Source: an uncultured Zetaproteobacteria bacterium (GTDB lineage Bacteria; Pseudomonadota; Zetaproteobacteria; Mariprofundales; Mariprofundaceae). From it: a stretch of DNA of 64,000 nt. Below, piece after piece: positions 5,770-33,198 of this stretch. Where the stretch lies: the NCBI GenBank assembly GCA_964458185.1, contig CAYWFG010000008.1, forward strand, positions 2,843 through 66,842, in the 5' to 3' direction. The notes beneath the pieces are model-generated. The model was not told the origin of the DNA and ran no database searches. It was given only the letters and a program-made list of their open reading frames with translations. Within the stretch, counting starts at the first letter, position 1, and every line of letters begins with the position of its first letter. The position numbers and the translations under genes are program-made.

Positions 5770-6978
5770 TCAATGACTGACCACCCATTCATCGGCACGC
5801 TTATGGCTTAAAAATTCAATGTTCGACATGCTTAAGCCATAAGCGCCCGCCAAACCAAAAACAGCAATATCACCAATATCAGCATGCTCAATATACACAT
5901 TATTGGCTAATTTATCTGCGCCTGTGCAGAGCGGACCACCAAAATAAACCGACTCTTGATGAATACTTAGCTGTGCATCAAACAATTTTTTCACGCCCCG
6001 TCGAATAATCGTCATTGGGTGATTAATCCCCAGTGCCGCAGGACGACGAAAATGATTGATGCCACCTGCGCAAATCACCTGCTTTTTGCCACGACTTTCT
6101 TTAATATCAATGATTTCTGTGCAAAAGAATCCTGATTCTGCGGTTAAATAACGCCCCAGTTCAAGCACAAAGTGACGACCTTCAAAACCATGGGAGACGA
6201 TCAATGCTTGCAGGCCTTTTGCCCACAATGCGGGGTCAAGATCTTGCCCTCGCTCTAAATAATCAACGCCAAAACCACCACCAAAATCAATAATATCACA
6301 ACAAATATCAGGGTATGATGATTCGATTTCTTGCGTTAGAGAAAAAACCAAGGCGCAGTTTTTTAATAAATCATCCACATTGAGTACACCTGAAGCAGCA
6401 TAGACATGCAAACCACGAAAATTTAGATGAGTAAGCCCTAGCAACAATGGCAATACCGTATGCAATTGTTCTTCATCAACACCAAACTTCCGTGAGCCAC
6501 CAGAGAAGGTAGTTTGTGCCTCGTGAATATCAAAATTAGCATTGATCCGTAACAATACATCTTGCTGTATGCCTGCGCTAGCAGCAATCGTTTCTAGTCG
6601 GTATGCTTCAGTTAATGATTCAATATGAATTGTTTTAATCTGATTTTCCACACACCAATGAAGTTCTTCGACTGTTTTTCCTGGTCCTGTATAAATCAAG
6701 GCATTGGGCAAAAAACCTGCAGCAACGGCACGTTTTGCCTCACCCAAACTTGCAATTTCAATCCCTGCCACACCTGCAGCACGCGCCGTTGCTAAAAAAT
6801 CAGGGTGTGGATTCGCTTTCATGGCATAAAAAACATCAACCCCTGCGGGCATGATGCTACGCAGGCTAGTAATTTTTTGATGCATAGGGGAAAGATCATA
6901 CATATAACCATTCAGGGTCTGATTATCAATTTGTTTTTGCTGGCAAATCGCATGTTCAATATGAGGTAATAGATTCAT
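5770..6978 (-). CDS. PLP-dependent decarboxylase, Orn/DAP/Arg decarboxylase family 2 (substrate not assignable)
   Basis: FYAMKANPHP (PLP-lysine motif), DFGGGFG glycine loop, ELGRY, and GAYG near the C-terminus. Confidence 0.7.
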   Translation of the reverse strand: MNLLPHIEHAICQQKQIDNQTLNGYMYDLSPMHQKITSLRSIMPAGVDVFYAMKANPHPDFLATARAAGVAGIEIASLGEAKRAVAAGFLPNALIYTGPGKTVEELHWCVENQIKTIHIESLTEAYRLETIAASAGIQQDVLLRINANFDIHEAQTTFSGGSRKFGVDEEQLHTVLPLLLGLTHLNFRGLHVYAASGVLNVDDLLKNCALVFSLTQEIESSYPDICCDIIDFGGGFGVDYLERGQDLDPALWAKGLQALIVSHGFEGRHFVLELGRYLTAESGFFCTEIIDIKESRGKKQVICAGGINHFRRPAALGINHPMTIIRRGVKKLFDAQLSIHQESVYFGGPLCTGADKLANNVYIEHADIGDIAVFGLAGAYGLSMSNIEFLSHKRADEWVVSH

Positions 6979-20982: not shown

Positions 20983-21336
20983 TCACCGAATCGGGCATGG
21001 CGGACAACAACAATCAAACGCTTCTTTAGTGCGTATACGGTACAATGTATCGACAGGGAAAACAGCCACCAAACCATCGCCTGATTGCCCCGTGTAAGCC
21101 GTCTCCATAATACATTGGGCAATGCTATCGGTTTCAGATGCATCGCAAAAAATTTCAATTTGCGCATGGTTGCACATCATGTCTTCTCGATAATAATCGT
21201 GGTATTCACCATAACCACGCACCTGTGTGACACTGATGCCAGAGACATTGATGTCACGCAATGCCGCTTCAACTTTTTTTAACACCAAACTGCTGATCAC
21301 AGCGGTAATACGTTTATAATTCACATGGTCATTCAT
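20983..21336 (-). CDS. PII (GlnB)-superfamily protein of the heavy-metal-efflux-linked type, with a Cys-rich C-terminal tail
   Basis: KRITAVISSLVLKKVEAALRDINVSGISVTQVRGYGE...GDGLVAVFPVDTLYRIRT has PII topology. The T-loop is short and non-canonical. Tail is FDCCCPPCPIR. GGGAG Shine-Dalgarno before ATG 21336. Confidence 0.7.
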   Translation of the reverse strand: MNDHVNYKRITAVISSLVLKKVEAALRDINVSGISVTQVRGYGEYHDYYREDMMCNHAQIEIFCDASETDSIAQCIMETAYTGQSGDGLVAVFPVDTLYRIRTKEAFDCCCPPCPIR

Positions 21337-21403
21337 GATTAAAACTCCCTCTTTCATCAAATGTGCAAGCCATGAGTCACCATAGCTTGCACAAATTCAC
21401 CCT

Positions 21404-21907
21404 TTATTTATTATCAGGGTATTTCACACCGATAAAATGTTTGCCACCATCTTCGGTTTTAAACAACACCATGATCTTGTGTTGCCCTGGGTGGTCAAGC
21501 TCATAGCCTGCCATATACCAATCGCCCATTTTCATCATCATCTTGGATTCTGATTTGTCGTTGGGGTGGGTAACTTTAGAGTTCACCGCTTGTAAGCCAA
21601 CAACAGCACCATCTTTTTCAACTTTAACCATCAAGTGGAACGAACCACCGTGTGCCATACCTTCAGGGGCTTTCATGACATGAAAGCTTACTGTGTAACC
21701 ATCGACATCAGCCTTTTCCAGATACGTCCCTTTTTTCATGCCACCATCATGGCTCATCTCGCCCTTCATGTGACCGTCATGCATGTTGCATGGGTTGTGG
21801 GCATGCCCTTCGCCATGGGCATGATCGCCTGTTGCCCACGCGCTTGGCATGGCAAGGCTGGCGGCAAACAATGCCGCTGCTGTTAATAACATCCGTGTTT
21901 TTTTCAT
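21404..21907 (-). CDS. periplasmic His/Met-rich putative Cu/Ag-binding protein
   Basis: Signal peptide ending SAWA. Mature N-terminus TGDHAHGEGHAHNPCNMHDGHMKGEMSHDGGM. Beta-rich body carries an MMMKM patch. AAGGAG Shine-Dalgarno. Confidence 0.55.
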   Translation of the reverse strand: MKKTRMLLTAAALFAASLAMPSAWATGDHAHGEGHAHNPCNMHDGHMKGEMSHDGGMKKGTYLEKADVDGYTVSFHVMKAPEGMAHGGSFHLMVKVEKDGAVVGLQAVNSKVTHPNDKSESKMMMKMGDWYMAGYELDHPGQHKIMVLFKTEDGGKHFIGVKYPDNK

Positions 21908-21916
21908 GTAAACTCC

Positions 21917-22064
21917 TTAGTGTTCATGTTTTAAAATATAAGGCTTTGAATCCTGATGGGTTTCAGGATCGCCTGTGTGTTCCCAGCCTTTACTGTCGTG
22001 AAGGCCAGTGCAACCCATTAACAACGCCGAGAGAAAAACTACCAATATAATCGTTTTATCCATT
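21917..22064 (-). pseudogene. small (48-aa if repaired) lipoprotein gene interrupted by a 1-nt frameshift in a T-run
   Basis: AAGGAG lies 7 nt before ATG 22064. Frame 1 gives MDKTIILVVFLSALFNGLHWPSRQ*. Skipping one T at 22020-22022 gives MDKTIILVVFLSALLMGCTGLHDSKGWEHTGDPETHQDSKPYILKHEH*, which ends exactly at the next gene's Shine-Dalgarno. The out-of-frame part aligns with the intact mini-lipoprotein at 23259-23405. Confidence 0.5.
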
Positions 22065-22086
22065 TCTCACTCCTTGTTTTATGCTC

Positions 22087-22695
22087 TTATTTCACCGCAC
22101 CAAACGGCAAAACCCGTGCGAAAGGTCGATGCCCAGCGCGCATGTGCATCAATGCCATAAACACATGCCCAATCACATACAGCCATAATAATTTAGATAA
22201 CAATGAATGGCTGCTAAGCAATAGCTCCATGCCTTGTGAGATATGCTCATGGCTATGCCCACTTGGTTCACTGGTGAACCAAATAATGGTTCCTGTAATC
22301 GCCATACCTGCCATCACCAATAACCCCAGCATTTCAATAATCATGGATAAGGCATTATTGGGTTGAATAAATACAGACTTGCCGAGCAATGCAGCAGGCA
22401 GCTTGCCAAGCACTACTTTTGCATCGTGCCAATGTTGTAGCGACAAAAGCACTGCCATTTGTCGTTTGTTTTGCTCACCACGCATAACAATTGCCCACAG
22501 CACATTCGCCAATACAATGACCGCAACAATTAAGCCATCCAGTTGATGCAAACTCATCAAAAGATTGCCAAAGGGTGTGCCATGATCGTCAGGGTGTGAC
22601 ATCAATAAACTGCTTGATAGTTGAAACAGCACGCCAACAATCAAGCCTGCATGCAGCCAACGGGTGGTGACATGATAACCTTGCATAGTCATCAA
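22087..22695 (-). CDS. cytochrome b561-family membrane protein
   Basis: Four TM helices with conserved His positions (TRWLHAGL..., HQLDG..., HVFMALMH). The ATG overlaps the DUF411 stop (ATGA). Confidence 0.6.
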   Translation of the reverse strand: MMTMQGYHVTTRWLHAGLIVGVLFQLSSSLLMSHPDDHGTPFGNLLMSLHQLDGLIVAVIVLANVLWAIVMRGEQNKRQMAVLLSLQHWHDAKVVLGKLPAALLGKSVFIQPNNALSMIIEMLGLLVMAGMAITGTIIWFTSEPSGHSHEHISQGMELLLSSHSLLSKLLWLYVIGHVFMALMHMRAGHRPFARVLPFGAVK

Positions 22696-23180
22696 TAGTG
22701 CGCGAAGACTTCTGTTTTTCCGCTGCCGTTAAACGACAATACATCATAGCCTTCGGTGGGTAAGCCTTCTTTTTGCATGCCTGGTGATTTCATCGGCATG
22801 CCAGGGGCAGTAAGCCCCACAATATCAGGACGTTCTTTTAATAAACGTGCCACGTCTTTGGCTGGGACATGACCTTCTATAATATAACCGCCAATCAATG
22901 CCGTATGGCATGATTCCAATGATTTAGGTACGCCGTATTGTTTTTTGATGGCATTCATATTGTCACGTTTGTGTTCGGTGACGGTAAAGCCTGCTTGACG
23001 CATATGGCTTGCCCAATCACCGCAACAGCCACAGGTCGGGGATTTGTACATATCAATGGTTTGACCATTTGATTGTGCCACCGTTGTTGTTTTTTCTTCG
23101 GCTATTGCGGTATTCACCGCATAGGCTGTAAATAACATTGCCATCATAGCAAATAAGCCAGTTTTTTGATAAAGTTTCAT
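22692..23180 (-). CDS. copG: DUF411 / CopG-family periplasmic copper-binding protein
   Basis: SPTCGCCGDWASHM Cys cluster and GYIIEGHVPA...APGMPMKSPGM. Signal peptide from MKLYQKTG (ATG 23180, AAGGAA Shine-Dalgarno). Confidence 0.8.
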   Translation of the reverse strand: MKLYQKTGLFAMMAMLFTAYAVNTAIAEEKTTTVAQSNGQTIDMYKSPTCGCCGDWASHMRQAGFTVTEHKRDNMNAIKKQYGVPKSLESCHTALIGGYIIEGHVPAKDVARLLKERPDIVGLTAPGMPMKSPGMQKEGLPTEGYDVLSFNGSGKTEVFAHY

Positions 23181-23258: not shown

Positions 23259-23405
23259 TTAGCGAATAATATCAAATGAGCGGTCATGTGCATTTTTACC
23301 TGTATGCTTCATCGTTGTGCCATCAGCATTATCGTGTGTATTGGCACAAGCACCCAAACTGAGGGTAAACATCAGCATCATCGCCATCATTATATATTTT
23401 TTCAT
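23259..23405 (-). CDS. unannotated 48-aa lipoprotein (absent from the ORF track)
   Basis: MKKYIMMAMMLMFTLSLGACANTHDNADGTTMKHTGKNAHDRSFDIIR. Lipobox is LGAC. AAGGAG lies 8 nt upstream, inside the end of cusA2. The ATG overlaps the cusA2 stop (ATGA). Confidence 0.65.
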   Translation of the reverse strand: MKKYIMMAMMLMFTLSLGACANTHDNADGTTMKHTGKNAHDRSFDIIR

Positions 23406-26400
23406 ACGTCACTCTCCTTTACCATCGATTTTTCTTGCCATTGCAGCAATAAACCATACACAGCAGGCAATACCACAAGGCAAAGAATGGTAGTTGTTAC
23501 CATACCACCAATCATGGGCGCTGCAATGCGTTGCATCACACTGGAACCTGTGCCATCGCCCCACATAATCGGTAACAAACCTGCAATCACTGCCGTGGCA
23601 GTCATGGCAATGGGGCGCACCCGTTGCGCTGTGCCTTGGAGAACAGCGGCATACATTTCTTTTGGCTCTAATGGGCGTTGCAATACTTTACGCTTTTCAT
23701 CCACGGTTTGTGCAATGAACGTTAATACCAACACGCCAATTTCTGCGGCGACACCTGCCAGCGCGATAAAACCTACACCGACGGCAACACTTAAATTATA
23801 ATCCAGCAGATAAATCAACCAAATACCGCCGACCATGGCAAACGGCACAGAAACCATCACCACCAAGGGTTCGGTTAAGCGTTGAAAGTTAAAGTACAAT
23901 AGCAAGAAAATAAGCAACAACACCAATGGTGCAACAATTTGCATCCTTGCCTTGGCACGCTGCATGTATTCGTATTGCCCTGACCATATCACATTATAAC
24001 CTGCTGGAATTTTCACTTTTTCGGCTACAATTTGTTGTGCCTTAGTCACATAACCGCCAATATCGGAAGTTTTGATGTCCACATAAATCCATGTATCCAG
24101 CAACGAATCTTCACTTTTAATCACGGGTGGGCCACGGGTTAATGATAAATCTGCAACCAATGACAGAGGAATTTGCTCACCGTGGGGCGTGGGAATCAAT
24201 ACCCGTTTGAGTGCCTCAGGTGAATCACGCACTTCACGCGCATAACGCAGGTTCACAGGGTAGCGTTCCAACCCTTCCACGGTTTTGGTGATGTTCATGC
24301 CACCAATGGCTGATTGAATGACATCTTGCACGTCACCCACGGTTAAACCATAGCGCGAAGCTTCTTTGCGGTTGATTTTAATATCGTAATAATACCCACC
24401 CACCGCACGATCCCCCATCGCAGTTTGGGTTTCAGGTAGCATTTTTAACACGCCTTCAATCTCTTTGCCCAGACGTTGCAACTCTTCAAGGTTATCACCC
24501 ACGATCTTGATGCCTACAGGGGTTTTGATGCCTGTAGAAAGCATGTCGATCCGTGTTTTTATCGGGTATGTCCACGCATTGGCAATACCGGGGAAGTTGA
24601 TGGCTTGATCCATTTCCTTCATCAATTCCTTGCTGGTTTTTTCAGGATTTGGCCATGCTTCATGCGGTTTTAGATGAATGGTGGTTTCCATCATCGATAA
24701 CGATGCAGGGTCAGTCGCGGACTCTGCTCGCCCTACTTTACCAAATACCGTTTCCACTTCAGGAAACCGTTTGAGTATTTGATCGGTACGCTGCAAAATC
24801 TCTTTTGCCTTGGTAATAGAAATACCAGGGAATGCCGTCGGCATATACAAAATATCGCCTTCATCCAGTGGCGGCATGAACTCGCTGCCCAGCTTGCTTA
24901 ACGGGTACGCACCACTGACCAGCAGCACCACGGCAATCATCATGGTCATCCATTTAAAACGCATCGCCACCGTTAAAATGGGGGTGTGCAACCATTGCAA
25001 AAAACGATTGATCGGGTTTTTATGCTCAGGCATGATTTTTCCGCGAATAAAATAGCCCATCAACAAAGGAACCAAGGTAATCGCCAAAATCGCCGCTGCT
25101 GCCATCGAATAGGTTGCGGTAAACGCCAATGGTTTAAACAAACGCCCTTCTTGTGCTTCCAGCGCAAAAATCGCCAAATAAGACACCGTGATAATCAACA
25201 AAGAGAAAAACAACGCAGGGGCAACTTCTTTGGAGGCCGTGCCAATCGCTGCCCAATGTTCTTTGTTGTTGAGTGCACCGCCTTTTTGTTGCGTTCGCTG
25301 CTCCAGATGCTTGTGGGCATTTTCGATTAACACAATCGCGCCATCAACCATTGCCCCGAGCGTAATTGCGATACCACCCAACGACATAATGTTCGCGGCA
25401 AGCCCTTGGGTTTGCATCAAAATAAAGGCAATCAACACCCCCAAAGGCAAGGTGATAATCGCCACCAAGGCAGAGCGGGCATGCATGAGAAACAACAAGC
25501 AAACCAGCCCAATAACAATAAATTCTTCAATCAGTTTTTCTTTTAAATTGTCCACAGCGCGTTCAATTAAGCCGCTGCGGTCATAAACAGGAATAATCTC
25601 TACGCCTTCGGGAAGCCCTTTGCGTAATTCATCGAGTTTTTCTTTCACCGCATTGATGGTGGCTAAAGCATTTTCACCAAAGCGCATAATCACCACGCCG
25701 CCAGCGACTTCACCTTCGCCATTTAGCTCAACCAATCCACGGCGTAATTCAGGGCCTAAATGCACATGGGCTATATCACGAATACGAATCGGCGTACCCG
25801 TAGTGTTTGAACCAACAGGAATATCATTGATGTCTTCAATGCTTTGTATATAGCCTAATCCACGCACCATGTATTCGGTTTCAGACATTTCGAGTAAGCG
25901 TCCACCAACATCGTTGTTGGAGCGTTTGATCGCATATTTGACGGCAGATAATGGAATATTGTATGCCAGCAAAGCATCAGGATCGACTTCCACTTGGTAC
26001 TGTTTAACAAAACCACCAATGGAGGCGACTTCAGATACGCCATTAACGGTTTGCAAGCGGTAGCGTAGATACCAGTCTTGAATGGAGCGCAGTTGGGATA
26101 AATCATGTTTGCCTGTTTTATCAATCAAAGCATATTCATAGACCCAACCGACACCCGTGGCATCAGGGCCTAATGTAGGGGTTACGCCTTCGGGTAAAAA
26201 CTTGGAAGCATAATTAAGGAATTCTAACACACGGCTACGCGCCCAATACATATCGGTGCCATCTTCAAAAATGATGTAAACGAACGAAAAGCCAAAAAAT
26301 GAATAACCACGCACTGTTTTTGTTTTGGGTACGGCAAGCATGGCAGTGGTTAAAGGGTAGGTGACTTGGTCTTCGATCACTTGTGGGGCTTGACCGGGGA

Positions 26401-26557
26401 ATTCAGTGAAAACGATAACTTGGACATCCGATAAATCAGGGATGGCATCTAGGGGAATGGTTTTGACTGCCCATAAACCACCTAGGAATAATAGCATGGT
26501 TGCCATTAATACTAAAAATGGTTTTTTTAATGAGATGTCTACGATATTTTGGATCAT
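23402..26557 (-). CDS. cusA: CusA-type (monovalent Cu/Ag) heavy-metal-efflux RND permease, copy 2
   Basis: 1051 aa. TM4 motif LGAMVDGAIVLIEN (A-x5-D-x6-E, Cu/Ag type). Met triad contexts conserved (ILYMPT, SLSMMETT, RIDMLSTG). Confidence 0.9.
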   Translation of the reverse strand: MIQNIVDISLKKPFLVLMATMLLFLGGLWAVKTIPLDAIPDLSDVQVIVFTEFPGQAPQVIEDQVTYPLTTAMLAVPKTKTVRGYSFFGFSFVYIIFEDGTDMYWARSRVLEFLNYASKFLPEGVTPTLGPDATGVGWVYEYALIDKTGKHDLSQLRSIQDWYLRYRLQTVNGVSEVASIGGFVKQYQVEVDPDALLAYNIPLSAVKYAIKRSNNDVGGRLLEMSETEYMVRGLGYIQSIEDINDIPVGSNTTGTPIRIRDIAHVHLGPELRRGLVELNGEGEVAGGVVIMRFGENALATINAVKEKLDELRKGLPEGVEIIPVYDRSGLIERAVDNLKEKLIEEFIVIGLVCLLFLMHARSALVAIITLPLGVLIAFILMQTQGLAANIMSLGGIAITLGAMVDGAIVLIENAHKHLEQRTQQKGGALNNKEHWAAIGTASKEVAPALFFSLLIITVSYLAIFALEAQEGRLFKPLAFTATYSMAAAAILAITLVPLLMGYFIRGKIMPEHKNPINRFLQWLHTPILTVAMRFKWMTMMIAVVLLVSGAYPLSKLGSEFMPPLDEGDILYMPTAFPGISITKAKEILQRTDQILKRFPEVETVFGKVGRAESATDPASLSMMETTIHLKPHEAWPNPEKTSKELMKEMDQAINFPGIANAWTYPIKTRIDMLSTGIKTPVGIKIVGDNLEELQRLGKEIEGVLKMLPETQTAMGDRAVGGYYYDIKINRKEASRYGLTVGDVQDVIQSAIGGMNITKTVEGLERYPVNLRYAREVRDSPEALKRVLIPTPHGEQIPLSLVADLSLTRGPPVIKSEDSLLDTWIYVDIKTSDIGGYVTKAQQIVAEKVKIPAGYNVIWSGQYEYMQRAKARMQIVAPLVLLLIFLLLYFNFQRLTEPLVVMVSVPFAMVGGIWLIYLLDYNLSVAVGVGFIALAGVAAEIGVLVLTFIAQTVDEKRKVLQRPLEPKEMYAAVLQGTAQRVRPIAMTATAVIAGLLPIMWGDGTGSSVMQRIAAPMIGGMVTTTILCLVVLPAVYGLLLQWQEKSMVKESDV

Positions 26558-26581
26558 TGTTTTGCTCCTTTTCGGCTATGC

Positions 26582-26603
26582 GGGCAGGCACATAGGCCTG
26601 CCC
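26582..26603. repeat. GC-rich hairpin element GGGCAGGC-ACATAG-GCCTGCCC between cusA1 and cusA2
   Basis: Read directly. A near-identical copy in opposite orientation lies at 29781-29802. Confidence 0.6.
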
Positions 26604-26611
26604 CTACGGGG

Positions 26612-29600
26612 TTATTTGTGGGCTGCGCGTTCTTTTGCCTGTAATACCATGCCATAAATGACGGGTAGGACTAGCAGGCTTAACAATGTTGCCGTGACCA
26701 TGCCACCAATCATCGGCGCTGCGATGCGTTGCATGACATCGGAGCCTGTGCCTCCGCCCCACATGATCGGCAGTAAACCTGCAATGACGGCGGTGGCTGT
26801 CATGGCAATAGGGCGTACTCGTTGGGTTGTACCACTGGCTACGGCTTCGATGATGTCTTGGGATGATAATGCACCGCGTGTTTCGGCACGGCGTTTGGCG
26901 ACCGATTGATCGATAAAGGTCATCACCAACACGCCGATTTCTGCCGATACCCCTGCTAGCGCAATAAAACCAACAGCGACTGCAACACTCATATTATAAC
27001 CCAAATACCAAACCAGCCAAAAGCCACCAATCAAGGCAAAGGGAATAGAGAGCATGACCACCACAGGTGAGGTGAAATTTCTAAAGTTAAAATACAGCAA
27101 CAAAAAGATCGTCAACAGAGTAATCGGAATCACCACGCGAAGCCGTTCTGCGGCACGTTCCATGTATTCAAACTGACCAGACCACACCAGCGAGTAACCC
27201 GCAGGAATTTTCACTGTTTCTGCCACCTTCTTTTTAGCTTCAGCGACATAACCACCAATATCGGAGGTTTTAATATCGACATAAATCCATGCGTTCGGCG
27301 TGGCATTTTCTGTTTTAACCGATGGGGGGCCACGGCGAAGCTTTAACGTTGTCACCAAAGATAAAGGGATTTGTGTGCCTGTCGGCGTAGGGATCAACAC
27401 CCGTTTAAGTGATTCCATATTATCGCGCAATTCACGCGGATAACGAATATTAATCGGGTAACGCTCTAAGCCTTCCACCGTTTCACTCACATTCATGCCA
27501 CCAATGGCAGATTGAATCACATCTTGCACATCTCCCACCGTTAAACCATAACGAGCAGCTTCTTCACGGTTGATGTCAAAATCAAGGTAATACCCCCCTG
27601 CGGCACGGTCAGCAAAGGCAGACAATGTATCGGGAAGTTGTTTAATAGCGCGTTCAATTTCGCCAGCAACATCTTCTAATACCTGCAAGTCAGGCCCTGA
27701 TAGTTTAATGCCAATCGGGGTTTTAATCCCCGTAGAGAGCATATCAATCCGTGTTTTAATTGGGTATGTCCACGCATTGGCTAGCCCTGGGAATTTGATC
27801 GCAGCATCCATTTCTGCCATCAATTCTTTGGTTGTTTTGCTAGGATCTGGCCATTCCGATTTGGGTTTTAAACGAATGGTAGTTTCTAGCATCGAGAGTG
27901 GTGCAGGGTCAGTGGCTGTTTCTGCACGCCCTACCTTACCAAAGGTATGATGCACTTCAGGGAAGGTTGCCAGAATTTTATCCGTTTGCTGCAATAACTG
28001 CTTTGCCTTGGTAATAGAAATACCAGGGTAAGTCGTTGGCATATAGAGTATATCACCTTCATCCAAGGGCGGCATGAACTCTGAGCCTGTATTCATCAAC
28101 GGGTAGGCTGTTGCACCCAGCAAGATAAGGGCAAAACTTAGCGTGATAAAACGCCAACGCAGCGCAAAACCAAGCAATGGCGCATGCACCGACTTTAAAC
28201 CTTTATTGAGCCAATTATGCTCTTCACTGGGGATTTTTCCGCGAATCATCAGTCCCATCAGCACAGGAACCAAGGTAACGGCAAGCAATGCTGCCGCAGC
28301 CATCGCATAGGTTTTGGTGAACGCCAGCGGTGCAAACAATCGCCCTTCTTGCGCTTGCAAAGTAAACACAGGCAAAAATGATACCGTAATAATCAGCAGC
28401 GAGAAAAATAGCGCAGGACCGACCTCTTTGGAGGCAGCAGTAATCGCCTGCCATCGTGCCGTGGTATTGTTGCTTTGTTCAGGGGTAAGATTTTCTAGGT
28501 GCTTATGGGCATTTTCGATCATCACAATTGCCCCATCAATCATCGCACCAATGGCAATGGCAATACCGCCAAGACTCATAATATTGGCAGATAAGCCCTG
28601 CCATTGCATAATCATAAAAGCGATCAAAATTCCAATTGGCAAACTGATAATTGCCACCAAGGCACTGCGCGCATGCATTAAAAAGATCAAGCAGATGATT
28701 GCCACTACAATCGACTCTTCAATCAATTTACCCTTGAGATTTTCCACGGCACGTTCAATCAAATCACCACGGTCATACACGGGTATAATTTCTACACCTT
28801 CGGGCAAGCCTTCTTTTAGATCATCCAGTTTTTCGCGTACACGTTCAATGGTGGCTAAGGCGTTTTCACCATAACGCATAATAATAATGCCACCGACCAC
28901 TTCGCCTTCACCATTTAGCTCAACCAGTCCGCGCCGCAATTCTGGCCCAATATGAATATTCGCCAGTTGTTTAAGAAAAATTGGCGTACCATTATCATCC
29001 ACACCAACAGGAATGACCTCTAAATCATGCAAGCTTTTGATATACCCCAACCCACGCACCATGTATTCGGTTTCGCTCATTTCCACCAAACGCCCACCAA
29101 CATCATTATTCGAGCGTTGAATGGCATGTTTAATTTTTGCAAGTGGAATATTGTAGGCAAGCATGGCATCAGGGTTTAACTCAATTTGGTATTGTTTAAC
29201 ATAGCCACCAATCGAAGCCACTTCAGATACGCCTTGCACGGTTTGCAAAGGGTAACGTAAATACCAGTCTTGAATCGAACGGAGTTGCGATAAGTCGTGT
29301 TTTCCTGTTTTATCTACCAAGGCGTATTCGTAAATCCAGCCAACACCTGTGGCATCAGGGCCTAACTTTGGCGAGACACTGGCTGGCAAACGGTCTGCTG
29401 CATAATTCAAGTATTCCAGCACCCGCGTCCGCGCCCAATACATATCGGTGCCATCTTTGAAAATAACATAGACCATCGAAAAACCAAAAAACGAATAGCC
29501 CCGTACCACCTTGGTATTCGGCACAGAAAGCATCGCCGTGGTCAACGGGTAGGTTACTTGATCTTCGACAACTTGCGGTGCTTGCCCTTCAAACTGGGTA

Positions 29601-29749
29601 AATACAATCACCTGCACATCAGAAAGATCAGGGATGGCATCCAGTGGCGTGGCTTTCATCGCCTGAAACCCTGCAAACGAAATCAACAATGCAGCAATCA
29701 ATACCAAAAATCGGTTCCGAATGGATACATCAATAAGCGAACGAATCAT
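26612..29749 (-). CDS. cusA: CusA-type (monovalent Cu/Ag) heavy-metal-efflux RND permease, copy 1
   Basis: 1045 aa. TM4 motif IGAMIDGAIVMIEN. Met triad contexts ILYMPT, PLSMLETT and RIDMLSTG. Confidence 0.9.
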   Translation of the reverse strand: MIRSLIDVSIRNRFLVLIAALLISFAGFQAMKATPLDAIPDLSDVQVIVFTQFEGQAPQVVEDQVTYPLTTAMLSVPNTKVVRGYSFFGFSMVYVIFKDGTDMYWARTRVLEYLNYAADRLPASVSPKLGPDATGVGWIYEYALVDKTGKHDLSQLRSIQDWYLRYPLQTVQGVSEVASIGGYVKQYQIELNPDAMLAYNIPLAKIKHAIQRSNNDVGGRLVEMSETEYMVRGLGYIKSLHDLEVIPVGVDDNGTPIFLKQLANIHIGPELRRGLVELNGEGEVVGGIIIMRYGENALATIERVREKLDDLKEGLPEGVEIIPVYDRGDLIERAVENLKGKLIEESIVVAIICLIFLMHARSALVAIISLPIGILIAFMIMQWQGLSANIMSLGGIAIAIGAMIDGAIVMIENAHKHLENLTPEQSNNTTARWQAITAASKEVGPALFFSLLIITVSFLPVFTLQAQEGRLFAPLAFTKTYAMAAAALLAVTLVPVLMGLMIRGKIPSEEHNWLNKGLKSVHAPLLGFALRWRFITLSFALILLGATAYPLMNTGSEFMPPLDEGDILYMPTTYPGISITKAKQLLQQTDKILATFPEVHHTFGKVGRAETATDPAPLSMLETTIRLKPKSEWPDPSKTTKELMAEMDAAIKFPGLANAWTYPIKTRIDMLSTGIKTPIGIKLSGPDLQVLEDVAGEIERAIKQLPDTLSAFADRAAGGYYLDFDINREEAARYGLTVGDVQDVIQSAIGGMNVSETVEGLERYPINIRYPRELRDNMESLKRVLIPTPTGTQIPLSLVTTLKLRRGPPSVKTENATPNAWIYVDIKTSDIGGYVAEAKKKVAETVKIPAGYSLVWSGQFEYMERAAERLRVVIPITLLTIFLLLYFNFRNFTSPVVVMLSIPFALIGGFWLVWYLGYNMSVAVAVGFIALAGVSAEIGVLVMTFIDQSVAKRRAETRGALSSQDIIEAVASGTTQRVRPIAMTATAVIAGLLPIMWGGGTGSDVMQRIAAPMIGGMVTATLLSLLVLPVIYGMVLQAKERAAHK

Positions 29750-29828: not shown

Positions 29829-31307
29829 TTATTTAGGCATTTCCATATCGCCCATATTCATGTCATCCATCTTGTCCATATCCATATCGCCCATATCCAT
29901 ACCTTTAGGTGCTACAACCTTAGGTTCTTGTTTCTTCATCATTTTGGCAGTGGCTTCTTTAAGTTTTGACTCAGAGTCAATCAAGAATTGGCTAGAGGTC
30001 ACGACAATCTCACCCTCTTTCAAACCATTAACAATTTGCACCATGCCATCAGCTTCCACGCCCAAAATAACCTTGCGTGGATCAAACTTACCTGCACCAC
30101 GCTGCACAAATACTTGCTCTTGTTCACCCGTGCGCACAATCGCTTCTGATGGAATAACAATGGCATCAACCTGCTTACCCGCTCTCACATTCACATTGGC
30201 AAACATTTCAGGCTTTAGCACCAAATCACTGTTATCAAATTCCAAACGAATTTTAACGGTGCGGGTTTTTGCTTCTAAGTAGGGGTAAATGTAACTTACT
30301 TTACCGATAAAAGTTCTCCCCGGTACGCCAGCGATTTTCATTTCAGCATCATCGCCTTCACGCACCCAAGGTAGATCATCTTCGTACAGATCTACAATCA
30401 CCCAAATATGGGTAAGATCAGCAATCATGTACAATTCAGTGGAAGGTGTGATCCGTTCCCCTTCACGTACGCCAATGTTCATGATTGTGCCATTAAAAGG
30501 TGAGTGGATATGCAGTGCTTTAATGACTTTGCGTGTGCGTTTTAATTTTCTAATTTGATGTTTGGGTACATCCAATAAATCAAGTCGTGAATACGCCGAT
30601 TTCAATAAATTTTTAGCTCCTTCACGCACATCAGGGAAAGGACTGTTCTTTAAAATATCAACGTTGTTTAATGCCAAAATATATTCTTCTTGTGTAGCGA
30701 CCAACTGCGGCGAATAAATCGCCATCAACATCGTATCTTTAGCAACGGTGTCACCCGTCTTGTTGATAAATAATTTTTCTACCCAGCCATCATACTTAGG
30801 GTGCAAACGTGCTACACGCTCTTCATCAAAAGTGACGCGCCCAATGGTGCGAATATCACGCGATAGTGTGATGCGTTTTGCCGTAGTGGTACGAACACCG
30901 ATATTTTGTGCCAGCGTACCATCAATTTTTACCGTGCCAGCCAACGATTTTTCATCACCACCACCATCGGCATACACGGGAATATAATCCATGCCCATTT
31001 CATCTTGCGCAGGAACAGGTGAAGTAATATTGGGATTCATCGGGTTGCGGTAAAACAATACTTTTTTTTCTTTGGGGGAATTCTCTTCGGCATAGACAGG
31101 CACATAATCCATGCCCATAGAATCTTTGGCGGGTACTTTGGATGTAGCCGTAGGATCCATGGCATTACGGTAAAAAAGAATTTTTCGTTCGTTACTAGCC
31201 GCTGGGGTTGAAGGGGATTGATTGGCGTAATACTGATTGCCAAAGTAGCCAGCCCCTGCACCGATAAGCAAGGTGACGATGGCAGTGCCGATAATGGATT
31301 TGTTCAT
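29829..31307 (-). CDS. cusB: CusB-type RND periplasmic adaptor with two N-terminal heavy-metal-binding repeats and a Met/Asp-rich tail
   Basis: Repeats ILFYRNAMDPTATSKVPAKDSMGMDYVPVYAEE and VLFYRNPMNPNITSPVPAQDEMGMDYIPVYADG. MFP barrel/hairpin body. Tail is GMDMGDMDMDKMDDMNMGDMEMPK. Confidence 0.85.
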   Translation of the reverse strand: MNKSIIGTAIVTLLIGAGAGYFGNQYYANQSPSTPAASNERKILFYRNAMDPTATSKVPAKDSMGMDYVPVYAEENSPKEKKVLFYRNPMNPNITSPVPAQDEMGMDYIPVYADGGGDEKSLAGTVKIDGTLAQNIGVRTTTAKRITLSRDIRTIGRVTFDEERVARLHPKYDGWVEKLFINKTGDTVAKDTMLMAIYSPQLVATQEEYILALNNVDILKNSPFPDVREGAKNLLKSAYSRLDLLDVPKHQIRKLKRTRKVIKALHIHSPFNGTIMNIGVREGERITPSTELYMIADLTHIWVIVDLYEDDLPWVREGDDAEMKIAGVPGRTFIGKVSYIYPYLEAKTRTVKIRLEFDNSDLVLKPEMFANVNVRAGKQVDAIVIPSEAIVRTGEQEQVFVQRGAGKFDPRKVILGVEADGMVQIVNGLKEGEIVVTSSQFLIDSESKLKEATAKMMKKQEPKVVAPKGMDMGDMDMDKMDDMNMGDMEMPK

Positions 31308-32602
31308 GGTTGATCCTTAATGGTTTGAATGGGTGTGCCTACGGCAGCTTCAAGGCGTGCCAAGGCTTGATTGGCTGTGCTGATCGCTTTCCAATACTGG
31401 GTTTCGTAGTTGTAACTGGTGATTTGACTGCGCACAAGGTTGAGGAAATCCACCTTGTTCACTTGGTAGCCTGCCAACATCGAAGCAACCGTTTGTGTGG
31501 CTTGGGGGATAATCCCCGTTTTAAACAACAGTGCTTGACGAGTCGCTGTTTGATAATCACTGACCGATTGGCTGATGTCTGTTTCCATGGTTAAGCGGCG
31601 ATCTTCTAGTGCAAAAGTCGCTCGTGCGGTGTCTGCCTCGCGTTGTGCTAATGCGCGGTCTTGTTTGGTATCGGTGAAAATAGGTAAATTCATGCTGAAC
31701 ATAATGCCCGTTAAATCGCTGCGACCTGCCCGCATACCATAATTTCCGCCAAGGGAAAAATCAGGGTAATAATCTTTTTTTGCTAATTCAACACGCGCTT
31801 TTGCTGCATCAATATGCTTGCGCTGCGCATCAAGCCATGGACGCGAAGCCAATGCGGTAGTGCGTAACAGTGATTCATCAGGAAGTGTATTTAATTGTTC
31901 AGAAATAGTTGCAGGCAAGGTGATTTGCGCATCTGCGCGGCGTTGCATCAAGGTGTTGAGTGCCGCCTGTTGATCGCGGCGAGTTCCTTTAAGAGAAATC
32001 TCACTATCTAACAACTTAGATAATTCAAGTTGTGCCAACAATACATCCGATTGTAAGCCTTGCCCTGTTTTGTATTTGCTGTCTGCAATACGAACAAATT
32101 GACGCAATAAACTTTGATTGCGTTGAACGATACGCAATGCTTGATCGACATAAACCAAGTTCCACCAATACATGTGGATATTCCGCTGCAACACCAAGCG
32201 AATTTCAGCGACATCCAACAATGCCGCCTGTGCTACAAAATCAGCACTTTTAGCGCGCAACGCCAACTTACCAGGGTACGGTAAGGCTTGAGTCAAACCT
32301 ACTTGAGTCTGGGTCATTGCTTCACGGCTTAAAGAAGGATTATTCAATGGAACATTCAGTATATTAAAATTAAACCGTGGATCGGGCAAGGTGGATACTT
32401 GCGCGGGGACTTCTGCCAATGCTTTGGCGCGTTCGCTTAAGCCTGTTAAAGCTGGATGCGTGGCAATGCTTTGCACGGCATCTTTTAATGTTAATGCTTT
32501 CGATGCATCTGCACTGTGTGCCGTCACCGTCACACCCCAAGCAAGCAACATACTCGCCAGCACTGCCCGCATGGGGGTCAGTGTATAAAGATAAGGCATC
32601 AT
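31304..32602 (-). CDS. cusC: TolC-family outer membrane factor (CusC-like)
   Basis: 432 aa with two OEP repeats. AGGAGG Shine-Dalgarno. Overlaps the cusB start by 4 nt. Confidence 0.8.
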   Translation of the reverse strand: MMPYLYTLTPMRAVLASMLLAWGVTVTAHSADASKALTLKDAVQSIATHPALTGLSERAKALAEVPAQVSTLPDPRFNFNILNVPLNNPSLSREAMTQTQVGLTQALPYPGKLALRAKSADFVAQAALLDVAEIRLVLQRNIHMYWWNLVYVDQALRIVQRNQSLLRQFVRIADSKYKTGQGLQSDVLLAQLELSKLLDSEISLKGTRRDQQAALNTLMQRRADAQITLPATISEQLNTLPDESLLRTTALASRPWLDAQRKHIDAAKARVELAKKDYYPDFSLGGNYGMRAGRSDLTGIMFSMNLPIFTDTKQDRALAQREADTARATFALEDRRLTMETDISQSVSDYQTATRQALLFKTGIIPQATQTVASMLAGYQVNKVDFLNLVRSQITSYNYETQYWKAISTANQALARLEAAVGTPIQTIKDQP

Positions 32603-32745: not shown

Positions 32746-33183
32746 TTAAATAAGTATGCGTTGGGTGGTGGTAAAAAGAAGAGAACTGCTACGCGGCGGC
32801 CCTGTAGGGGTGCGCGATATAAGCATGGAAAGCGTGAATACATGATAGTCTTCACGATCAAGCACAGAAAACATGCTAATATGATCCAGAGACAATAAAG
32901 CAAACACAGCAGAAGAAGCCTGCGTTGGTTCTTCACAATGGAAACAAGCGTGTGCCTGTGGTTGCTGTTGATGCAGGCCTATATCGGCATTGCAATGTTT
33001 TTCTACTTCGGTCAACAGCATGATAGAACCATCATCTGATGGCGTTGCAGGCATATCCGCAGCCATCAAACAAGCAGAAGATAGCAATAACTGTGCTGTA
33101 AAAAGCAAAGCCACGCCAGCCATAAGCCGCTGAAAACCACGATGGTCTGCAAAGTAAGAAAACATGGCGGCAATACTAGGCAT
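32746..33183 (-). CDS. hypothetical membrane-anchored/secreted Cys/His protein
   Basis: Hydrophobic N-segment LMAGVALLFTAQLLLSSACLMA followed by HCNADIGLHQQQPQAHACFHCEEP. Lies 3 nt (TTG start at 33195) or 15 nt (ATG start at 33183) downstream of the FtsX-like gene. No family recognised. Confidence 0.4.
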   Translation of the reverse strand: MPSIAAMFSYFADHRGFQRLMAGVALLFTAQLLLSSACLMAADMPATPSDDGSIMLLTEVEKHCNADIGLHQQQPQAHACFHCEEPTQASSAVFALLSLDHISMFSVLDREDYHVFTLSMLISRTPTGPPRSSSLLFTTTQRILI

Positions 33184-33198
33184 AGTGGGAAGCAAATG

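What the first reader, a model, noticed from the sequence alone, without database searches (positions are those of the whole stretch)
23259..23405. Unannotated 48-aa lipoprotein translationally coupled to cusA2
The gene falls below the ORF-track size cut-off. An AAGGAG sits 8 nt upstream, inside the cusA2 3' end, and the ATG overlaps the cusA2 TGA (ATGA). The product is MKKYIMMAMMLMFTLSLGAC|ANTHDNADGTTMKHTGKNAHDRSFDIIR, with a textbook lipobox. The mature peptide is 29 aa and carries three His and one Met. Its motif pattern C-x3-HD...HTG...H recurs in a second small gene 1.3 kb downstream. It may represent a new family of metal-handling mini-lipoproteins attached to an RND pump.
Basis: seen in the sequence. 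Interest (0 to 1): 0.62.

Follow-up and report, generated by a model that had tools for sequence, protein, structure and literature searches.

The report
Mini-lipoprotein coupled to copper efflux pump
A real 48-codon gene that starts on the stop codon of a copper-pump gene encodes a tiny lipid-anchored, histidine-bearing peptide; it is a diverged copy of an unnamed, untested family of mini-lipoproteins that iron-oxidising Zetaproteobacteria keep inside their copper-efflux operons.

Summary
On the minus strand, ORF1 (23405..23259, 48 aa) has AAGGAG 8 nt upstream, and its ATG overlaps the TGA of a CusA-type pump gene (ATGA). It has a lipoprotein signal peptide with lipobox LGAC, and a 29-aa mature peptide with three His and one Met.

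ORF1 itself has only near-identical relatives from the same microbial-mat study. In these the start codon, Shine-Dalgarno site, overlap, lipobox Cys, HD and HTG are kept (pN/pS about 0.2).

The second small gene, ORF2, belongs to a well-conserved family with no Pfam or NCBIfam model. I found 24 clusters of 45-72 aa. The mature consensus is C-S-S-M-HDGKGWEH-x-GDPETHQD-x2-PY-x2-EH-x-H. All eight contexts inspected were cusCBA-type operons of Zetaproteobacteria. In three of them the gene overlaps the cusA stop codon, as ORF1 does.

The pumps closest to CusA2 carry a canonical family member at ORF1's position. ORF1 is therefore most likely a diverged positional orthologue that has lost the family's invariant Trp and C-terminal HxH.

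The function is inferred, not shown: a lipid-anchored, His-based periplasmic metal-binding accessory of the Cu(I)/Ag(I) pump. There are no expression data.

The parts
23259..23405 (-). ORF1. A 48-aa mini-lipoprotein precursor. Signal peptide codons 1-19 (23405..23349), lipobox L-G-A-C with Cys20 at 23348..23346, mature 29-aa peptide CANTHDNADGTTMKHTGKNAHDRSFDIIR, stop TAA at 23261..23259.
   Evidence: Searches give the sequence. One search gives only weak hits limited to lipoprotein signal peptides. Searches show three variants that keep the start, the Cys, HD and HTG. One search gives pN/pS 0.21. One search shows the product is present in public gene calls.
23414..23419 (-). Shine-Dalgarno AAGGAG, 8 nt before the ORF1 ATG and lying inside the last codons of cusA2 (..V-K-E-S-D-V).
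   Evidence: It is conserved in L081/L082 and in the third variant, even though the CusA tail changes from KESDV to KENNL.
23402..23405 (-). ATGA overlap: the ORF1 start codon overlaps the cusA2 stop codon (translational coupling).
   Evidence: The same ATGA overlap joins family members to cusA in L132 and L294; in L130 the junction is ATGATG, with an ATGA or a 1-nt overlap depending on which ATG is used.
23402..26557 (-). cusA2. A 1051-aa CusA-type heavy-metal RND pump that keeps the Cu(I)/Ag(I) methionine-triad positions.
   Evidence: One search places it in a clade with the L083 and L294 pumps, which have canonical mini-lipoproteins directly downstream.
26612..29749 (-). cusA1. A tandem paralogue, 1045 aa, 70% identical to CusA2, in a clade with the L130 and L132 pumps.
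29829..32602 (-). cusB-like membrane-fusion protein (29829..31307) and cusC-like outer-membrane factor (31304..32602).
22692..23180 (-). DUF411 (CopG-type) secreted protein with a CGCC motif, the gene next after ORF1. The 78-nt spacer holds no terminator.
22087..22695 (-). Cytochrome b561-type membrane protein.
21917..22063 (-). ORF2. A 48-aa canonical member of the HDGKGWEH mini-lipoprotein family: MDKTIILVVFLSALLMGC|TGLHDSKGWEHTGDPETHQDSKPYILKHEH.
   Evidence: (89.5 bits against the family HMM).
21404..21907 (-). 167-aa secreted His/Met-rich protein with a conserved beta-sandwich domain. In every locus inspected it is the downstream neighbour of the mini-lipoprotein family, directly or after one further small gene (L083, L130).
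   Evidence: No Pfam or PDB match. The AlphaFold2 model is low-confidence.
20983..21360 (-). P-II-like protein, a recurrent member of these operons.

Best explanation
ORF1 is a genuine gene of a Zetaproteobacterium (family Mariprofundaceae).

It is translated by coupling to cusA2: a Shine-Dalgarno site lies inside the cusA2 tail and the junction is ATGA. This arrangement would tie its synthesis to that of the pump.

The precursor carries a type-II (lipoprotein) signal peptide. Cleavage before Cys20 and acylation would leave a 29-residue peptide tethered by lipid to a periplasm-facing membrane leaflet.

ORF1 is a diverged positional orthologue or paralogue of a conserved, unnamed family of 45-53-aa mini-lipoproteins. 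The mature consensus is C-S-S-[LM]-HDGKGWEH-x-GDPETHQD-x2-PY-x2-EH-x-H. Zetaproteobacteria place this family inside cusCBA-type Cu(I)/Ag(I) efflux operons, right after cusA or after the DUF411 gene. It always lies just upstream of a conserved ~170-aa His/Met-rich periplasmic protein, directly or after one further small gene.

Proposed mechanism (inferred): the mature peptide is unstructured on its own. It uses its His side chains (plus Asp/Glu, and Trp in canonical members) to capture periplasmic copper at the membrane surface. It then hands the metal to, or takes it from, the pump or its periplasmic partners. This would be a lipid-anchored counterpart of a soluble periplasmic metallochaperone or metal buffer; no CusF domain was seen among the operon genes inspected.

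Shown: the anatomy, the conservation, the operon linkage and the family's existence. Inferred: lipidation, metal binding, the partner protein and the direction of transfer.
For: Anatomy.

Lipoprotein signal: only signal-peptide-level matches to many lipoprotein families. [G/A]-C is invariant across the family.

Reality of ORF1:
- Three sequence variants exist: the window, L081/L082 (92% aa identity) and a 166-nt contig in run X3.
- All keep the ATG, AAGGAG, the ATGA overlap, the Cys, HD and HTG, while the overlapping CusA tail changes.
- pN/pS is 0.21 over codons 1-27.
- Gene callers called it.
- Look-alike mini-lipoprotein ORFs are essentially absent from 1.5 Mb of comparable loci.

The family: 24 ORF2-type clusters, P0002-P0026. 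Invariant positions are C, H, G-W, H and a C-terminal H-x-H.

Context, always a cus operon:
- L127 (M. micogutta), L128, L293 and L295: CusA, DUF411, mini-lipoprotein, 167-aa homologue.
- L130/131, L132 and L294: the mini-lipoprotein starts on the cusA stop codon.
- L083: the mini-lipoprotein lies 135 nt after cusA.

Link of ORF1 to the family:
- A family HMM built without ORF1-type sequences scores ORF1 at 17.7 bits. It is the second-best of 1854 six-frame ORFs in the window, E 2.4e-4.
- L081 scores 19.1 bits against a best noise score of 10.6 among 39,786 ORFs.
- The third variant has the mature N-terminus CSNMHD, matching the family consensus, and scores 22.3 bits.
- Mature-only Smith-Waterman scores against shuffles give P = 0.006 for ORF1 and 0.0035 for the third variant.
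- In the CusA tree, CusA2 groups with the L083 and L294 pumps, whose immediate downstream gene is a canonical family member.

Copper context: the CusA Met triad is conserved. DUF411, cytochrome b561, YHS, HMA and MerR genes lie in the operons.

Disorder: in the AlphaFold2 model of the family the mature part is coil with pLDDT about 60.
Against: - There is no expression, lipidation or metal-binding data. The only metatranscriptomes from the site are 8-18 Mb and show nothing over ORF1.
- ORF1 lacks the family-invariant Trp, the Glu and the C-terminal H-x-H.
- The HMM alignment covers only the signal peptide plus C-x3-HD, and a mature-only HMM gives 3-5 bits, which is not significant.
- An exhaustive phmmer search of 1.84 billion representatives finds no ORF1-type relative beyond the 92% one, so conservation of ORF1 itself is shallow.
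- The third variant rests on one depth-2 contig with up to three unlisted differences.
- Canonical mature peptides carry little or no Met beyond position +4 and no Cys beyond the lipid anchor. These are the usual Cu(I) ligands of Cus components, so the metal and its oxidation state are open.
- Only 3 of 43 genome loci with the 167-aa protein carry the mini-lipoprotein, so it is dispensable for that partner.
Confidence: 0.5

Rival explanations
1. Structural pump accessory rather than metal carrier. The lipopeptide docks on CusA2, CusB or CusC and tunes assembly, stability or gating, as the 49-aa AcrZ does on AcrB or the lipoprotein YbjP does on TolC. The His residues would serve protein contacts or pH sensing.
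For: The ATGA coupling to cusA recurs in four lineages, as is common for subunits of one complex. Each cusA clade has its own mini-lipoprotein. The peptide has no fold of its own. Precedent: YbjP binds TolC 3:3 (abstract of PMC13095208). AcrZ is cited from my own knowledge.
Against: In four of eight contexts the DUF411 gene separates the mini-lipoprotein from cusA. The constant neighbour is the secreted 167-aa protein, not the pump. Four invariant His plus Trp in a 30-residue acidic peptide, inside a copper operon, fits a metal site better. No complex prediction could be run.
Confidence: 0.2
2. ORF1 is a decaying or functionally released duplicate of the canonical mini-lipoprotein. It is still translated, but its mature peptide no longer does the family's job. 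It may persist only because its translation keeps ribosomes on the mRNA between cusA2 and the DUF411 gene.
For: ORF1 has lost the invariant Trp and C-terminal H-x-H. A canonical copy, ORF2, is present in the same operon. ORF1-type genes are confined to one site and one 50% cluster. pN/pS is higher in the mature part (0.42) than in the signal peptide (0.11), on very few sites.
Against: The closest relative, L081, keeps ORF1 but lacks ORF2, so there ORF1 is the only mini-lipoprotein. HD, HTG and a third His are identical in all three variants. The frame is open and the lipobox intact in all of them.
Confidence: 0.15
3. The signal peptide is not cleaved. The product would be a single-pass inner-membrane peptide with its N-terminus in the cytoplasm and its C-terminus in the periplasm, carrying a 28-residue periplasmic tail.
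For: A hydrophobic helix at residues 3-18 is predicted. No processing data exist.
Against: [G/A]-Cys at the end of the hydrophobic segment is invariant in all 26 sequences. Such conservation is the signature of a lipobox and is not needed for a plain membrane anchor. The N-terminus matches many lipoprotein models.
Confidence: 0.05
4. Chance open reading frame in the cusA2-DUF411 spacer; no gene.
For: The ORF is very short. There are no deep homologues of its own type and no RNA or protein evidence.
Against: It has a strong Shine-Dalgarno site at ideal spacing, the ATGA junction, a complete lipoprotein signal and purifying selection. Its position is identical to that of canonical family genes in sister loci. 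The background rate of such ORFs is near zero.
Confidence: 0.04

Closest known systems
Unnamed Zetaproteobacterial mini-lipoprotein family (for example 'hypothetical protein MMIC_P1587' of Mariprofundus micogutta, P0011; window ORF2)
   Same: Same size (48 aa), lipoprotein signal and C-x3-HD directly after the lipid-anchor Cys. It has an H-[TS]-G motif and acidic, His-bearing composition. It lies in a cusCBA operon and has the same ATGA coupling to cusA as P0014 and P0024 (P0026 has ATGATG). It is the positional equivalent in the CusA2 clade.
   Different: ORF1 lacks G-W-E (it has T-M-K) and the C-terminal E-H-x-H. It has a 3-residue insertion after HD. It is followed by the DUF411 gene, not by the 167-aa protein. 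Statistical support for homology is moderate only. The family itself has no Pfam or NCBIfam model and no experimental data.
CusF (periplasmic Cu(I)/Ag(I) metallochaperone of E. coli CusCFBA)
   Same: A small periplasmic accessory encoded inside a cus operon. In CusF the metal is held by His and Met with a Trp cap (own knowledge). Canonical mini-lipoproteins have invariant His and Trp. None of the inspected operon genes with a Pfam entry carried a CusF domain.
   Different: CusF is a soluble ~90-residue OB-fold barrel. The mini-lipoproteins are ~30 residues, lipid-anchored, without a predicted fold, with no sequence match, and largely Met-free. This is an analogy of role, not family membership.
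SilE / PcoE (His/Met-rich periplasmic metal 'sponges')
   Same: Intrinsically disordered, His-rich periplasmic proteins of copper/silver resistance loci that are thought to order on metal binding (own knowledge). The mini-lipoprotein is predicted as coil.
   Different: SilE and PcoE are ~120-140 aa, soluble, Met-rich and carry many sites. There is no sequence relationship (no Pfam hit).
AcrZ (49-aa accessory of the RND pump AcrB) and YbjP (lipoprotein bound to TolC)
   Same: Small or lipid-anchored accessory proteins attached to tripartite RND pumps. AcrZ is almost the same length as ORF1. YbjP is a lipoprotein bound 3:3 to the outer-membrane channel (PMC13095208 abstract).
   Different: AcrZ is an uncleaved transmembrane helix encoded away from acrAB (own knowledge). 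YbjP is a much larger folded protein (own knowledge). Neither is His-rich or linked to metal pumps. There is no sequence similarity.
Entericidin A/B, Lpp and other 40-80-aa lipoproteins
   Same: Similar size and signal peptide. A JGI record even names one family member 'Lpp'. There are weak NCBIfam hits to entericidin A and other lipoprotein models.
   Different: Those hits cover the signal peptide only and fall far below the cut-offs (for example 13.9 bits against 86). The mature peptides are unrelated.

Membership tests
Bacterial lipoproteins (signal peptidase II substrates) | N-terminal basic region, hydrophobic region, and a lipobox [LVI..][ASTVIG][GAS]-Cys about 15-25 residues from the start | tested here: met
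   The sequence is MKK-YIMMAMMLMFTLS-LGA-C20. The N-terminus matches 12 NCBIfam lipoprotein models at E 1e-4 to 0.1, over the signal peptide only. The Cys codon is kept in all variants, with a synonymous TGT to TGC change.
Bacterial lipoproteins (signal peptidase II substrates) | Diacylglyceryl modification and cleavage at the Cys (globomycin-sensitive) | not testable with these tools
   This needs labelling or mass spectrometry.
HDGKGWEH mini-lipoprotein family of Zetaproteobacteria (unnamed) | 45-53 aa from the likely start (database-72 aa), a lipobox, and C-x(2,3)-H-D at the mature N-terminus | tested here: met
   ORF1 is 48 aa with C-ANT-HD. The third variant has C-SNM-HD, matching the consensus C-S-[SN]-M-HD.
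HDGKGWEH mini-lipoprotein family of Zetaproteobacteria (unnamed) | Invariant G-W-(E)-H-x-G core | tested here: not met
   ORF1 has G-T-T-M-K-H-T-G. The His and Gly are kept, but Trp and Glu are absent and there is a 3-residue insertion.
HDGKGWEH mini-lipoprotein family of Zetaproteobacteria (unnamed) | Invariant C-terminal H-x-H | tested here: not met
   ORF1 ends ...HDRSFDIIR. There is no remnant after the stop codon.
HDGKGWEH mini-lipoprotein family of Zetaproteobacteria (unnamed) | Significant score against a family profile built without the candidate | tested here: inconclusive
   The scores are 17.7-22.3 bits, with E from 2e-4 to 5e-3 and 7-11 bits above the best noise. However, the aligned part is the signal peptide plus C-x3-HD. 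A mature-only HMM is not significant. Mature-only Smith-Waterman against shuffles gives P = 0.006 and 0.0035.
HDGKGWEH mini-lipoprotein family of Zetaproteobacteria (unnamed) | Located in a cusCBA-type operon, directly after cusA (overlapping its stop codon) or after the DUF411 gene | tested here: met
   ORF1 overlaps the cusA2 stop, as P0014, P0024 and P0026 overlap theirs. The CusA2 clade has canonical members at this position.
HDGKGWEH mini-lipoprotein family of Zetaproteobacteria (unnamed) | Followed by the ~170-aa His/Met-rich secreted protein, directly or after one further small gene | tested here: not met
   ORF1 is followed by the DUF411 and cytochrome b561 genes. ORF2 holds the canonical position.
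CusF (Pfam CusF_Ec) | An OB-fold domain of ~80 residues with a His/Met/Met/Trp Cu(I) site | tested here: not met
   There is no Pfam hit at E 0.01. The 29-residue mature peptide cannot form the fold, and the model is coil.
AcrZ | An uncleaved transmembrane helix, no lipobox, bound in the AcrB transmembrane groove | tested here: not met
   A conserved lipobox Cys is present and there is no Pfam hit. Binding is not testable here.
Entericidin A/B | A match to the entericidin models above the cut-off | tested here: not met
   ORF2 scores 13.9 bits against a cut-off of 86, over residues 1-19 only. ORF1 has no hit.

The most novel reading that the evidence does not exclude
The HDGKGWEH mini-lipoproteins, with ORF1 as a pump-specific diverged copy, would be a new class of ~30-residue lipid-anchored periplasmic metallochaperones. 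This would be the smallest such carrier that I know of. One would be dedicated to each CusA pump, made in step with it through stop/start overlap. They would shuttle copper between the pump, the DUF411 (CopG-type) protein and the conserved 170-aa His/Met protein, and so replace CusF in Zetaproteobacteria living in metal-rich iron mats.
Probability: 0.3. Interest if true: 0.72.

Novelty: new variant of a known kind. Interest (0 to 1): 0.55.

Why it matters
Cus-type pumps are the main periplasmic copper and silver defence of Gram-negative bacteria. How metal reaches the pump is understood only for E. coli, through the soluble chaperone CusF.

The operon genes inspected here carried no CusF domain on record. 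The operons instead keep a conserved module of uncharacterised parts: a ~30-residue lipopeptide with four invariant His and a Trp, a 170-aa His/Met beta-sandwich protein, DUF411 and a P-II-like protein.

If the lipopeptide binds metal, it would define a minimal, synthesisable, membrane-tethered copper site and a new accessory class for RND pumps. It would also give a handle on metal tolerance in iron-oxidising mat builders.

More generally, this is a worked example of a conserved sub-50-aa gene family that domain databases miss.

Tried and rejected
1. Word-indexed protein searches with ORF1 or ORF2 alone returned only themselves and one 92% relative. The family appeared only when loci found through the 167-aa neighbour supplied more members for a profile.
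2. Exhaustive phmmer with ORF1 over 1.84 billion representatives gave P0001 plus six long repetitive proteins. I inspected two of these (P0031, P0032) and rejected the set as composition or repeat artefacts.
3. Scanning GTDB genomes for the ORF2 motif patterns found only the locus already known.
It gave no pump closer than 74% identity and no new mini-lipoprotein.
5. Pfam and NCBIfam gave no family for ORF1 or ORF2. The NCBIfam hits are signal-peptide only.
6. AlphaFold2 on the family alignment gave no confident fold for the mature peptide, so I did not run a fold search on it.
7. For the 167-aa partner, a profile search against PDB was empty. The single-sequence model has pLDDT 54 and Foldseek found nothing significant. 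A weak hit to the H. pylori copper protein CrdA is a hint only.
8. For RNA evidence, the three metatranscriptomes from the same study are 8-18 Mb and carry nothing over ORF1, which is uninformative.
9. No terminator, no promoter signal above background and no Rfam family lies around ORF1. I therefore rejected an RNA-element reading of the spacer.
10. The 171-aa plus-strand ORF at 23286..23801 is the antisense shadow of cusA2 and ORF1, not a gene.
Full report
**Observation**

- ORF1 runs 23405..23259 and encodes MKKYIMMAMMLMFTLSLGAC|ANTHDNADGTTMKHTGKNAHDRSFDIIR.
- AAGGAG (23419..23414) lies 8 nt before the ATG.
- The ATG overlaps the TGA of the upstream 1051-aa ORF, giving ATGA.
- That upstream ORF is a CusA. 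It scores 1246 bits on NCBIfam TIGR00914 and 1254 bits against E. coli CusA structures, with the three-methionine Cu(I)/Ag(I) site positions conserved.
- The second small gene, ORF2 (22063..21917), reads MDKTIILVVFLSALLMGC|TGLHDSKGWEHTGDPETHQDSKPYILKHEH and shares C-x3-HD...HTG...H with ORF1.

**The operon**

The operon on the minus strand runs in this order: cusC-like, cusB-like, cusA1, cusA2, ORF1, DUF411, cytochrome b561, ORF2, a 167-aa secreted His/Met-rich protein, a P-II-like protein and a pyridine-nucleotide-disulphide oxidoreductase. No terminator or known RNA element lies around ORF1.

**Source**

SecY is 83% identical to Mariprofundaceae MAGs and 79% identical to Ghiorsea. The DNA occurs only in runs from one microbial-mat study. 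The organism is therefore a Zetaproteobacterium.

**Is ORF1 a gene?**

Its own relatives are few.
- A word-indexed search and an exhaustive phmmer search of 1.84 billion representatives find only P0001, which is 92% identical. The other hits are long repetitive proteins.
- P0001 lies on two contigs with the same cusA-ORF1-DUF411-cytochrome b order.
- Laying contigs of a sister run revealed a third, more distant variant, 24 differences over 166 nt at depth 2. It reconstructs to MKKYVIMAMMLMFTLGLGAC|SNMHDDGDGATMKHTGKNAHD....

Across the three variants the ATG, AAGGAG, the ATGA junction, the lipobox Cys (TGT to TGC), HD and HTG are all kept. The overlapping CusA tail, by contrast, changes from KESDV to KENNL. 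pN/pS is 0.21 over the 27 reliably reconstructed codons, though the numbers are small.

A strict scan for intergenic mini-lipoprotein ORFs on the operon strand of 212 comparable loci (1.5 Mb) returned only ORF1-type genes, ORF2-type genes and one other gene. Such ORFs therefore do not arise by chance at any appreciable rate.

The exact ORF1 product is already in the NCBI, JGI and Logan gene calls. I put the probability that ORF1 is a real translated gene at about 0.85. No RNA or protein evidence exists, because the site's metatranscriptomes are tiny.

**The family**

The GTDB locus whose cusA was the best tblastn match to the CusA2 C-terminus (L001) carries an ORF2-like gene 135 nt after cusA. 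The 167-aa neighbour served as an anchor to fetch 43 more loci, and these yielded further members.

A profile search then gave 24 ORF2-type clusters, P0002-P0026, called at 45-72 aa. Their mature consensus is C-S-S-[LM]-HDGKGWEH-x-GDPETHQD-x2-PY-x2-EH-x-H. The invariant positions are Cys, His, Gly-Trp, His and a C-terminal His-x-His.

The only source names are 'hypothetical protein MMIC_P1587 [Mariprofundus micogutta]', a UniRef 'Lipoprotein' and one mistaken 'Lpp'. No Pfam or NCBIfam model matches. Four literature searches found no description.

**Family context**

All eight contexts I inspected are cusCBA-type operons.
- In M. micogutta (L127), L128, L293 and L295 the order is CusA, DUF411, mini-lipoprotein, 167-aa homologue.
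- In L130/131, L132 and L294 the mini-lipoprotein starts on the cusA stop codon. The junction is ATGA in L132 and L294, and ATGATG in L130.
- In L083 it lies 135 nt after cusA.

The gene downstream is always the 167-aa family, directly or after one more small gene.

**Is ORF1 a member?**

Evidence for:
- A profile of the 25 ORF2-type sequences, built without ORF1 types, scores ORF1 at 17.7 bits. That is the second-best of 1854 six-frame ORFs in the window, E 2.4e-4.
- The same profile scores L081 at 19.1 bits against a best noise score of 10.6 among 39,786 ORFs from metal-efflux loci.
- The third variant, whose mature N-terminus CSNMHD equals the family consensus, scores 22.3 bits.
- Mature-only Smith-Waterman scores exceed composition-preserving shuffles at P = 0.006 for ORF1 and 0.0035 for the third variant.
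- In a CusA tree, CusA2 groups with the pumps of L083 and L294. Both have a canonical member directly downstream, and in L294 it is ATGA-coupled. CusA1 groups with the pumps of L130 and L132, which are also coupled. Each pump clade thus has its own mini-lipoprotein, and ORF1 sits exactly where the CusA2 clade keeps one.

Evidence against:
- The profile alignment covers only the signal peptide and C-x3-HD, and a mature-only profile is not significant.
- ORF1 lacks the invariant Trp and the C-terminal HxH.
- ORF1 is not followed by the 167-aa gene.

I conclude, at about 0.7, that ORF1 is a diverged positional orthologue or paralogue. It is not a canonical member.

The window may be a composite locus. 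A cusA2-ORF1-DUF411-cytochrome b module may have been inserted between cusA1 and its original ORF2-167-aa module. This is inference only. The nearest relative, L081, keeps the tandem pumps but lacks ORF2.

**Mechanism**

Shown: stop/start overlap with a Shine-Dalgarno site inside cusA, a conserved lipobox, a short acidic His-bearing mature peptide, obligatory residence in Cu(I)/Ag(I) pump operons, and no CusF domain on record for any operon gene inspected. AlphaFold2 on the family alignment predicts the signal helix and an unstructured mature part with pLDDT about 60.

Inferred: after lipidation the ~30-residue peptide is tethered at the periplasmic face of a membrane. The +2 residues are Ala, Ser, Thr or Asn, not Asp, which by the E. 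coli sorting rule would send it to the outer membrane (own knowledge). There it would bind copper through His, with Asp/Glu and with Trp in canonical members. It would act as a membrane-tethered chaperone or buffer for the pump and its periplasmic partners DUF411 and the 167-aa protein.

The scarcity of Met, and the absence of Cys beyond the lipid anchor, leaves the metal and its oxidation state open.

Rival readings:
- A purely structural pump accessory, in the manner of AcrZ or YbjP (0.2).
- A functionally released duplicate (0.15).
- An uncleaved membrane peptide (0.05).
- A chance ORF (0.04).

**Comparison and novelty**

The role resembles CusF or SilE/PcoE, and the format resembles small lipoproteins and AcrZ. 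No defining feature of any of those families is met.

The family itself is undescribed and absent from domain libraries. I therefore rate it as a new variant of a known kind: a periplasmic accessory of a metal-efflux operon in a new, lipid-anchored, ~30-residue format. ORF1 is an atypical member.

Interest is moderate, for two reasons. The family evidence is solid, and simple peptide chemistry and genetics could test the function. However, nothing functional is yet shown, and ORF1 proper is confined to one site.

Noticed in passing
window 23402-29749 (minus strand): There are two tandem cusA genes, 70% identical to each other. They belong to different CusA clades: CusA1 groups with the L130/L132 pumps at 86-87% identity, and CusA2 with L083/L294 at 73-78%. 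The locus looks like two cus modules merged behind a single cusC-cusB pair.
   Followed up: partly
L081 5700-5891 compared with window 21900-22100: ORF2 shows presence/absence polymorphism. In the closest relative the cytochrome b561 gene is followed directly by the 167-aa gene, with no ORF2.
   Followed up: partly
window 21404-21907 (minus strand); homologues in L084-L126: The 167-aa secreted protein has a variable His/Met-rich N-terminal region and a highly conserved domain (DGYxVSFHVMKA..GGxH..MxKVEKDG..NSKVxHPNGKSESKMMMKMGDWYMAGYDL..H..MVLFKT.DG.KHF). There are 70 distinct sequences in the fetched loci. It has no Pfam family and no PDB relative by profile. The low-confidence beta-sandwich model gives only a weak Foldseek hint to the H. 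pylori copper protein CrdA.
   Followed up: partly
L130 7159-7287 (also L131 2369-2497): A second, unrelated 42-aa Met/His mini-lipoprotein, MKKRFWLLIFITFLSLNQGC|MMLGMLSGDGPMMGHQHDSEDE, lies between the canonical mini-lipoprotein and the 167-aa homologue.
   Followed up: no
L086 4842-4994: A different Gly/Tyr/His-rich mini-lipoprotein, ...LSGC|LGLYGGEGSGYMGGSQGYEESGHHGGFEHDD, occupies the slot just upstream of the 167-aa homologue. It scores only 8.8 bits against the family profile.
   Followed up: no
window 32746-33195 (minus strand); L127 821-1246: A ~140-150-aa protein is encoded upstream of cusC. It has a conserved H-C...C-x-H-C motif and a C-terminal RTPTGPPRSS-x-L-x-TT-x-RI-x-I tail. It has no Pfam hit and recurs at the head of these cus operons.
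   Followed up: no
L083 about 6160-6517: A secreted protein made of three M-S-D-[AVI]-Q-H-R-K-[HT]-M-[AG]-G repeats (His/Met-rich) lies between the mini-lipoprotein and the 167-aa homologue.
   Followed up: no
window about 26583-26605 (minus strand): A perfect 8-bp GC-rich hairpin (GGGCAGGC-CTATGT-GCCTGCCC) sits in the 54-nt spacer between cusA1 and cusA2. It has no T-run, so it is not a classical terminator.
   Followed up: no
window 20983-21360 (minus strand) and L127, L128: A P-II-like protein is a recurrent member of these copper-efflux operons. The operons are followed in relatives by cytochrome c and by a sensor kinase with a sigma-54 response regulator.
   Followed up: no
P0009: A JGI record names one family member 'outer membrane murein-binding lipoprotein Lpp'. 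This looks like an annotation error driven by the signal peptide.
   Followed up: no
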